DNA of 64,000 nt from Octopus vulgaris (taxonomy: Eukaryota). The DNA is taken from the NCBI GenBank assembly GCA_951406725.2, contig OX597815.1:11222001-11286000 (forward strand). The letters are read 5' to 3'. Numbering within the stretch: position 1 is the first letter of the stretch; every line of letters begins with the position of its first letter. Shown piece by piece: positions 1 to 4,779 of the stretch. The translations under genes and the position numbers were made by a program. The notes below the pieces were generated by a model that was not told the DNA's origin, searched no databases, and was given only the letters and a program-made list of their open reading frames with translations.

Positions 1-102
1 GCAGATGGACAAACAGACGAGATTTATAAAATAGTGTTGCGTCTCTCATATGTTGTGGACAGTCGCGTTGCTACAGATTACCAGTTTCCAGAGATCAGTT
101 TA

Positions 103-308
103 CTCTTTTACTTGTTTCAGTCATTTGACTGCGGCCATGTTGGAGCACCGCCTTTAGTCGAGCAAATCGTCCTAAGTGCTTATTCTATCGGTCTCTTTTT
201 GCCGAACCGCTAAGTTACGGGGACGTAAACACACTAACATCAGTTGTCAAGCGATGTTGGGGGGGGGGGTCAAAAACAGACACATCAACATATACACACA
301 GATACATA

Positions 309-349
<41 letters not shown>

Positions 350-514
350 CACACATACATACGACGGGCTTCTTTCAGTTTCTGTCCACCAAATCCACTC
401 ACAAGGCTTTGGTCAGCCCGAGGCTATAGTAGAAGACACTTGCCCAAGGTGCCACGCAGTGGGACTGAACCTGGAACCTTGTGGCTGGTTGGCAAGCTAC
501 TTACCACAGAGCCA
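103..514 (-). mobile_element. tRNA-derived SINE, family A (octopus OK-like), with internal (CA/TA)n tract
   Basis: Minus strand starts with a tRNA-like head (TGGCTCTGTGGTAAGTAGCTTG...GGTTCCAGGTTCAGTCCCACTG), followed by GGCACCTTGGGCAAGTGTCTT. Homologous copies lie at 12694-12850, 18776-19066, 44357-44570 and 63485-63600. Confidence 0.8.
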
Positions 515-932
515 GGGAATTCAAGAGAATTTCTGTAATTCTTTTACGTAGTCCCAAATGTGAGTGCAGTACATTTAAATAAGGGACTTAGGGGGTCGAA
601 ATCAAGGAAATTTTATAAGATGTTAAATTTGAAAAAGAGAAAAAAATAAAAACCTCAACATACTAGAATTATATAAACTGTGAAATGCTGTAAATAATTA
701 CACGCAAACCTTCTGGAGTCGCTGTTGCGAAGATTCTTGAGGCCATTATGAAAAATAGGTTGTCGTTGAATGTTAAAACATACTCTTCTTATTAAAGAGA
801 TGTACTTGCATAGCAAGTGACCTGATCTGAGATTGTGTGCTGGAACGAAAACAATTGCAGCGTGGAAGGTGTTTATAAGCCATTTAAGAAACACACAAAA
901 ACCGTTAGATTCACTTCAACATTTAAATTTAA

Positions 933-983
933 TTTGTCAAAATATTTTCGTCGCTTTGAAACCTCGACCTGTTCACTGACAAA
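933..983 (-). ncRNA. Minimal type I hammerhead-like motif with G3-C8 swapped core (GUGAACA)
   Basis: Minus strand reads UUUGUCA-GUGAACA-G-GUCG(11 nt)CGAC-GAAA-AUAUUU-UGACAAA. This gives a 7-bp stem I, a 4-bp stem II and a palindromic stem III (AAUAUU). Confidence 0.6.
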
Positions 984-1734
984 ACATTGTGCTTCTTATA
1001 TTCTCATTTAAATTTCTTTCTAGAAAACGTTGGGGTTGATAAATGACGAGCAAGAAGTGTCTCCATCAACATATTCATGCAAAAAAAAAGAAAACGTAAG
1101 TTCGAATGAAGGCATGATGACTAAATATTGTTAGATGTGTACATATTCATAACATATGCAAAAAAAAAAAGAACCCCCCAAAAAACAAACGAACCAAAAG
1201 TAAAATAAAACAAAAACAAACTGCTTTATATTCAGTCCTTTAACTGAATCTGTGATATAAAAATAAGAACAAAGATAATTATGTATGAAATAATCAAAAT
1301 TATGTCGTGTTTCGGTTCAAGAAATAAAAACAAATTTCTGTATAAAACGTTTCTTTAACGCAGTGTTTAACGTATTCTTTCTTTAATCATTGAAGAAAAA
1401 TCGAAACTTATGAAATATTGAAATATGGAAATAAACTTAAAAAAGAGCAAAAGAGGAAAAAAAATAGTGAAATAGATACGGAAATTTTGTAACAAAGATC
1501 GACATAAATACATAAATAAATGAATAAATAAATAGTCAAATATCATTTTTATAAGAAAAATCGAAAGTTATAAACTAGTAAATTGTGAAAGTCCTTTTGT
1601 TTTGCTGTTGTCACTTTGCATCAGCACAAACAAATTGTTGCGTTTCTTGAAAATTAAACTTGCTTGTAGTAAAATTGTCATGACAACGAAAGTCAATGGA
1701 AGCTAGTGTGATGGTGCAGAAAAATACAGGAAAA

Positions 1735-4291: not shown

Positions 4292-4365
4292 CACATATTA
4301 AGAACATCTAAACTATTGTAATTATAAATCAGCGCATTGAAAGCCTGCCAAATATATAAATATAT

Positions 4366-4779
4366 ATTTCTTTATTGCCCACAAGGGGCTAAACATAGAG
4401 GGGACAAACAAGGACAGACAAAGGGATTAAGTCGTTTTCATCGACCCCAGTGCGTAACTGGTACTTTATTTATCGATCCCGAAAATATGAAAGCAAAGTC
4501 GACCTAGGCGAAATTTGAACTCAGAACTTAACGACAGACGAAATACCTATTTCTTTATTACCCACAAGGGGCTAAACACAGCGAGGACAAACAAGGACAG
4601 ACAAACGGATTAAGTCGATTACATCGACCCCAGTGCGAAACTGGTACTTTATTTATCGATCCCGAAAGGATGAAAGGCAAAGTCGACCTCGGCGGAATTT
4701 GAACTCAGAACGTAACGACAGACGAAATACCGCTAAGCATTTCGCCCGGTGCGCTAACGTTTCTGCACGCTCGCCGCCT
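4366..4779 (-). mobile_element. Family B SINE, tandem (head + 2 bodies) form
   Basis: Two body/tail units joined at GACGAAATACC|TATTTCTTTATT (~4547). TSD CCAAATATATAAATA at 4348 and 4780. Confidence 0.85.

What the first reader, a model, noticed from the sequence alone, without database searches (positions are those of the whole stretch)
933..983. Natural G3-C8 inverted core pair in a hammerhead
The motif has a perfect 7-bp stem I, a 4-bp stem II, GAAA and a palindromic stem III, but the core reads GUGAACA instead of CUGANGA. Established: C3 and G8 form a tertiary Watson-Crick pair in the active HHR, and engineered G3-C8 double mutants partly rescue activity. The two changes here are exactly that compensatory swap, which is unlikely to arise by neutral decay. 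Standard searches that require CUGANGA would miss it. The UUU cleavage triplet is normally weak.
Basis: partly seen in the sequence, partly recalled or inferred. Interest (0 to 1): 0.75.

Follow-up and report, generated by a model that had tools for sequence, protein, structure and literature searches.

The report
Swapped-core hammerhead in Penelope-like retrotransposon
This stretch is one of about 8,000 genomic copies of the end-piece of a young jumping gene that carries a hammerhead RNA motif with two paired core letters swapped; related families keep the usual pair, and the motif likely still cuts itself weakly, which has not been tested at the bench.

Summary
Confirmed, on the minus strand. 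The motif (983→933) has a 7-bp stem I, core GUGAACA, one extra G, stem II, GAAA and a palindromic helix III. It is not a decayed copy: G3-C8 stands in 7,728 of 8,494 pattern matches genome-wide and in 23 of 24 motifs of the young coding subfamily. It sits in the pseudo-LTR of a Penelope-like element (RT + GIY-YIG), 49 nt before the start codon. Related families keep C3-G8 at the same place with the same architecture, so this is natural covariation. An estimated 54 copies begin exactly at the predicted cut, against about 11 at one control site. That hints at cleavage in vivo, but unselected copies show no peak there. The window copy is a lone fragment that has lost one stem II pair. Engineered G3-C8 and natural U3-A8 are published; natural G3-C8 was not found in eight searches, though five key papers were not held. 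The scan noted this swap before, in this genome (e1-8670522, e1-8672697) and others. New variant of a known kind.

The parts
790..993 (-). Lone 5'-truncated copy of the pseudo-LTR end of a Penelope-like element (hammerhead, short leader, first codons of the ORF, tail)
   Evidence: Family matches cover 790-993 only; same piece at both ends of the coding copy L175
977..983 (-). Stem I, 5' strand
   Evidence: 7 of 7 pairs with 933-939
970..976 (-). Core strand GUGAACA: G3 = 976, C8 = 971, A9 = 970
   Evidence: fixed in the family
969..969 (-). Extra G between A9 and G10.1
   Evidence: also in both sister families; an extra base here is typical of Penelope-like minimal hammerheads (PMC4209133)
950..968 (-). 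Stem II (968-965 with 950-953) and loop; the fifth pair 964-954 is broken in this copy only
   Evidence: (other copies differ from the window at 964)
941..949 (-). G12-A13-A14-A15.1 and the self-complementary hexamer up to U16.1 (helix III, predicted to form between two molecules)
939..940 (-). Predicted cut between U17 (940) and U1.1 (939)
   Evidence: hammerhead numbering; excess of copies starting here against one control site
933..939 (-). Stem I, 3' strand
790..883 (-). Start codon (883) and about the first 31 codons of the element's RT + GIY-YIG ORF; copies end here in two clusters (tail signature)
   Evidence: frame continues into the long ORF in L175 and L176; 3' ends cluster at two places in 290 of 307 hits

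Best explanation
This is a minimal type I hammerhead motif in the pseudo-LTR of a recently active Penelope-like retrotransposon family, in which the 3-8 core pair reads G-C instead of C-G, and it likely still cuts the element's RNA at a low rate. Shown: the motif, its fixation in the family and in the young coding subfamily, its place 49 nt before the ORF, and C3-G8 at the same place in related families. Inferred: G3 and C8 form the tertiary pair that positions the 2'-OH of nucleotide 8; helix III forms between two motifs (tandem pseudo-LTRs or two RNAs), possibly helped by the element's own protein; cutting after U17 trims a small share of transcripts, which are then copied as insertions that begin at nucleotide 1.1. 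Most insertions come from uncut RNA. The window copy is a lone fragment and probably inert.
For: G3-C8 in 7,728 of 8,494 matches (91%) and in 23 of 24 motifs printed from 20 coding-family loci (3 loci gave no motif). L175 shows pLTR-ORF-pLTR with repeats 98.4% alike; the ORF has a YVDD motif, a CxxxCxxC linker and GIY-YIG. A ten-sequence alignment of three families keeps U4-G5-A6, G10.1-C11.1, GAAA and U16.1 invariant while 3-8 reads C-G in 5 and G-C in 5; stem II and helix III also change on both sides. A metagenome relative at 41% protein identity has a canonical core, so G3-C8 is probably the derived state. Contigs of four runs under four other organism labels show no variant above 5% at 965-983. 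The young subfamily folds into stems I and II (z -3.24). Copies that begin exactly at 1.1: 23 of 50 loci examined against 7 of 90 at a control site 8 nt downstream (Fisher p 5e-7; scaled 54 [38-72] against 11 [5-22]). C3G/G8C partly restores cutting in the anole element's hammerhead, which needs protein (PMC11167929).
Against: No cleavage assay. The footprint rests on one control position, and 8 ambiguous loci were set aside by eye. Among 77 truncated arms not selected for this test, none began at 1.1 apart from one locus that overlaps the test set, while positions -10 and -16 had 4 each. The cut site is not among the top loose ends in four DNA runs. Copies that start at the cut are about 1% of the family. 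The helix III hexamer duplex is barely stable (-0.2 kcal/mol). A young sister family carries C instead of A9, which suggests the core can drift. Hammerhead cutting was not needed for insertion in vitro in the anole element. The covariation rests on three related families, not many independent events.
Confidence: 0.62

Rival explanations
1. The motif descends from a hammerhead but no longer cuts; the fold is kept for another job (protein binding, translation or splicing control next to the start codon), or simply rides along in the master copy.
For: Cutting is dispensable for insertion in vitro in a Penelope-like element; a successful sister family has C9; nearly all copies derive from uncut RNA; weak helix III.
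Against: The only two core changes are complementary and fall on the one tertiary pair; by simple counting about 1 in 230 for two random core changes (my arithmetic: 1/78 x 3/9). Excess of 5' ends at the predicted cut against the control site.
Confidence: 0.3
2. The swap is an accident of decay in this copy or in a non-coding offshoot of a canonical family.
For: The window copy is a lone fragment, has lost a stem II pair and folds no better than shuffles (z -1.13).
Against: Fixed in 91% of matches and in the coding subfamily. The only C3-G8 match among the first 100 of 287 non-G3 matches belongs to another family. G3-G8 copies are scattered over all subfamily backgrounds with the same divergence, 4.9% against 5.3%.
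Confidence: 0.03
3. The motif is a chance look-alike.
For: No Rfam hammerhead match.
Against: 1 of 100 shuffled windows gives a hit; homologous canonical motifs at the same place in related elements; Rfam also missed the canonical sisters.
Confidence: 0.02

Closest known systems
Minimal type I hammerheads in the pseudo-LTRs of metazoan Penelope-like elements (Cervera and de la Pena 2014, PMC4209133; read: main text parts 1-2 of 4, passages of supplement file 2; file 1 not searched)
   Same: Place in the pseudo-LTR, extra base between 9 and 10.1, G10.1-C11.1, palindromic helix III, NUH triplet, mostly lone or inverted truncated copies.
   Different: Core pair G3-C8; that paper reports C3-G8 and U3-A8 only in the parts read. 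The extra base is G, where their consensus has H. Stem I is longer (7 bp).
Hammerhead of the anole Poseidon element PAc (Frangieh et al. 2024, PMC11167929; read: main text parts 1-2 of 4)
   Same: Hammerhead at the pLTR-ORF junction; two 3' ends inside the start of the ORF (tail); C3G/G8C form partly active.
   Different: There G3-C8 is an engineered control and the ORF starts inside the motif; here it is the natural state and the ORF starts 49 nt behind it.
Natural U3-A8 hammerheads (Perreault et al. 2011, PMC3088659; read: passages and section 8)
   Same: Natural covariation of the 3-8 pair.
   Different: U3-A8 keeps pyrimidine-purine order and needs two transitions; G3-C8 inverts it and needs two transversions.
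Neptune/Nematis-type Penelope-like elements (Craig et al. 2021, PMC8557442; read: passages)
   Same: C-terminal GIY-YIG, cysteine linker between RT and endonuclease, inverted truncated copies, tail, (TA)n at insertion sites.
   Different: Clade not fixed here: no reference sequences were at hand for a tree.

Membership tests
Type I hammerhead ribozyme | Stems I and II around the core with G10.1-C11.1 | tested here: met
   5-bp stem II in the family, 4 bp in the window copy
Type I hammerhead ribozyme | Literal core consensus CUGANGA | tested here: not met
   GUGAACA in the window and the family
Type I hammerhead ribozyme | Watson-Crick complementarity of positions 3 and 8 | tested here: met
   G-C here, C-G in sister families; 10 of 10 aligned rows paired. 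Sequence only, the tertiary pair itself is not shown
Type I hammerhead ribozyme | U4-G5-A6, A9, G12-A13-A14, A15.1-U16.1, H17 | tested here: met
Type I hammerhead ribozyme | Self-cleavage after position 17 | tested here: inconclusive
   Indirect only: 5' ends at 1.1 exceed one control site about fivefold, no peak among unselected arms; no assay possible
Type I hammerhead ribozyme | Match to an Rfam hammerhead model | tested here: not met
   canonical sisters were missed too, so the test says little
Minimal hammerhead of Penelope-like elements | Lies in the pseudo-LTR at both ends of an RT + GIY-YIG ORF | tested here: met
   L175
Minimal hammerhead of Penelope-like elements | Extra base between 9 and 10.1 and palindromic helix III | tested here: met
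Minimal hammerhead of Penelope-like elements | Activity as a dimer or with protein help | not testable with these tools
   cofold did not give the hammerhead dimer as the lowest-energy form; hexamer duplex -0.2 kcal/mol
Penelope-like element (EN+) | Single ORF with RT and C-terminal GIY-YIG; partial tandems, inverted truncated copies, tail | tested here: met
   Pfam gave GIY-YIG only, the RT call rests on the YVDD motif and named relatives
Neptune clade | Branches with Neptune RTs | not tested
   Only the cysteine linker and (TA)n ends were seen

The most novel reading that the evidence does not exclude
A natural hammerhead with an inverted G3-C8 catalytic pair is active in living cells, leaves its cut as a footprint in the 5' ends of genomic copies, and shows, together with a C9 sister family, that Penelope-like elements tune cleavage downward through non-canonical cores which CUGANGA-based searches miss.
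Probability: 0.4. Interest if true: 0.68.

Novelty: new variant of a known kind. Interest (0 to 1): 0.52.

Why it matters
It would add the purine-pyrimidine inverted pair to the natural hammerhead core, so far described as C3-G8 or U3-A8 in the papers read. It means that descriptor searches undercount ribozymes in retroelements. It also offers three related, naturally amplified families (C3-G8-A9, G3-C8-A9, C3-G8-C9) and thousands of copies with which to test an open question: whether and when Penelope-like elements need their hammerhead to cut.

Tried and rejected
530-790 as part of the family: rejected. G3-G8 as an ancestral intermediate: 39 arms share no diagnostic changes and are as diverged as 39 G3-C8 arms. 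A C3-G8 subfamily inside the same family: the one candidate, L276, belongs to the canonical sister family. Splicing of the pseudo-LTR: four runs guessed to be RNA, held as contigs only, showed no splice joint over L175:8030-8580 and cannot show expression or ends. Same motif in viral contigs: 49 pattern matches, 2 passed a loose stem filter with 4-bp stems, taken as chance. Metagenome relatives: 2 loci, both lacking the 5' end; one shows a canonical motif downstream. Rfam: nothing useful. The fold of L215:1600-1665 missed the motif and is disregarded; the canonical L073 stretch folded no better than shuffles (z -0.40). Five papers that bear on novelty and kinetics were not held: Lunse et al. 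(PMC5785218), Przybilski and Hammann 2007 (PMC1986816), Nelson and Uhlenbeck 2008 (PMC2151028), Seehafer et al. 2011 (PMC3004062), Hammann et al. 2012 (PMC3334697). More control positions for the 5'-end test could not be searched.

Full report
Observation. The motif lies on the minus strand, 983 to 933. Stem I has 7 Watson-Crick pairs. The core strand reads GUGAACA (G3 = 976, C8 = 971). One extra G follows, then a 4-bp stem II, GAAA, a self-complementary hexamer from A15.1 to U16.1, and U17 at 940. A descriptor that accepts any 3-8 pair finds only this site in the window, and 1 of 100 shuffled windows gave a hit. Rfam has no match.

The family. The stretch 790-993 is a dispersed repeat; 530-790 is not part of it. 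The 18-letter core pattern occurs 7,728 times in the 2.8-Gb genome, the reversed control 0 times. With any other base at 3 there are 287 matches, and with G3 but another base at 8 there are 479, so 91% of 8,494 carry G3-C8. The first 100 rows of each list, counted by eye, are mostly transitions. One of them reads C3-G8, and it belongs to another family. G3-G8 is more common than expected (about 30 of 100), but 39 such arms share no diagnostic change and are as diverged as 39 G3-C8 arms, 4.9% against 5.3%. They are recurrent mutants, not an ancestor. In contigs of four runs under four other organism labels no variant above 5% is listed at 965-983 (likeness cut-off 85%). The window's A at 964 is private; the family has a fifth stem II pair.

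What carries it. Longer copies lead upstream to a GIY-YIG frame. L175 holds repeat-ORF-repeat with 1.1-kb repeats 98.4% alike, each with the motif, 4.26 kb apart. The ORF starts 49 nt behind stem I (window 883) and runs about 1,065 codons; the two copies read from the start codon are interrupted, and L177 holds 997 open codons of the rest. [quoted passage not shown] Some copies are 100% identical over hundreds of bases, so the subfamily is young. Of 24 motifs printed from 20 such loci, 23 have G3-C8 and one is doubly mutated; 3 loci gave none. Copies end at two places inside the start of the ORF (290 of 307 hits), often in (TA)n and in inverted pairs. These are the marks of a Penelope-like element (PMC8557442, passages; PMC11167929). 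The best named protein relative is from Octopus vulgaris at 54% identity, so the host is probably an octopus (inference).

Covariation. Two related families carry the motif at the same place: one with canonical CUGAAGA (343 matches) and one with C3-G8 but C9. All three have the extra G, a 5-bp stem II and a six-base helix III half. In a ten-row alignment the core is invariant except 3, 7, 8 and 9; the 3-8 pair is C-G in 5 rows and G-C in 5, and stem II and helix III each show a change on both sides. Stem I is weaker in the sisters (67% of cells paired overall). A metagenome relative has a canonical core. G3-C8 is therefore probably derived. These are three families, so few independent events.

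Does it cut? If the RNA is cut after U17, reverse transcription from downstream would stop there and leave copies that begin at 1.1. I searched for the sequence from 1.1 onward preceded by a non-T base: 118 places. Of 50 loci examined (51 arms), 32 arms lacked the upstream motif; I set aside 8 as ambiguous (stem I microhomology, inner deletions, mutated remnants), leaving 23 loci. At a control site 8 nt downstream (145 places), 7 of 90 loci were truncated there, and 2 more began at 1.1 (the last 40 judged by eye; the set holds some array duplicates). Scaled, that is 54 (38-72) against 11 (5-22) copies, p 5e-7. Against this: only one control position; among 77 truncated arms picked up by other searches none began at 1.1 except one that overlaps the test set, while -10 and -16 had 4 each; and the site is not among the top loose ends. 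The footprint is a hint, not proof. In either case about 99% of copies come from uncut RNA.

Mechanism. The young motif folds into stems I and II (z -3.24); the window copy does not beat shuffles (z -1.13). Helix III cannot form well alone and the two-molecule hexamer is barely stable, so activity would need a dimer or protein, as reported for other Penelope-like hammerheads (PMC4209133; PMC11167929). Engineered C3G/G8C partly restores cutting. PMC3884650 (passages) notes that a G3-C8 variant is less active with C17 than with G17; this family has U17 where the canonical sister has C17, which may avoid a G3-C17 trap (inference; the C9 sister also has U17 in most copies). That UUU is a weak triplet is recalled, not checked. 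My best reading is a weakly active ribozyme in the master element (0.62); a non-cutting fold kept for another use is the main rival (0.30).

Comparison and novelty. It works like a minimal Penelope-like hammerhead and meets every structural feature tested except the literal CUGANGA consensus; cleavage is untested. Natural U3-A8 is published (PMC3088659; PMC4209133). Natural G3-C8 did not turn up in eight searches or in passages of PMC6765202, PMC6155905, PMC13282606 and part 1 of 5 of bioRxiv 2026.07.22.740005. Five key papers were not held, among them Lunse et al. on about 150,000 small variants (number recalled), and one supplement file of PMC4209133 was not searched, so an earlier report cannot be excluded. 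The scan's own notes describe the same swap in this genome (e1-8670522, e1-8672697) and in other genomes; they are unchecked leads and no independent support. I confirmed the tandem array of e1-8672697 in one locus. Verdict: real, a new variant of a known kind, interest 0.52.

Noticed in passing
L212:1267-1318 (+); also L210, L214-L216, L218, L219, L221-L223: A related young Penelope-like family (34-37% identity in the N-terminal part, open frames up to 1,312 codons) has a hammerhead at the same place with C instead of the conserved A9.
   Followed up: partly
L061-L075, L276: A canonical-core sister family, 343 pattern matches, with the same extra G and a 5-bp stem II; it shares its leader and ORF start with the C9 family. 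L065 is an older canonical motif 75% alike to the G3-C8 motif.
   Followed up: partly
L324 (G000:C2 near 17.909 Mb): A 166-bp tandem array of the same element end; 18 of 18 units in the locus have the G3-C8 core. It would put motifs side by side for dimer formation.
   Followed up: partly
position 8 of the core, family-wide (window 971): C8-to-G changes are about 30 of the first 100 non-C8 matches, against about 12 of 100 for G3-to-C (counted by eye). They recur on all backgrounds. Unexplained.
   Followed up: partly
L046, L076-L105, just 5' of the motif: Longer copies show a branch-point-like motif, a pyrimidine run and AG right where most short copies begin (497 matches). It looks like a 3' splice site; no spliced form was seen.
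   Followed up: partly
L384:1672-1730: A canonical minimal hammerhead behind the ORF of a metagenome relative at 41% protein identity.
   Followed up: partly
window 96-514 and 4358-4731: Other abundant repeats, shared with many fetched loci, and a two-copy 183-bp tandem.
   Followed up: no
L107, L109: Copies of this family abut or sit inside RT + GIY-YIG frames of other Penelope-like families.
   Followed up: no
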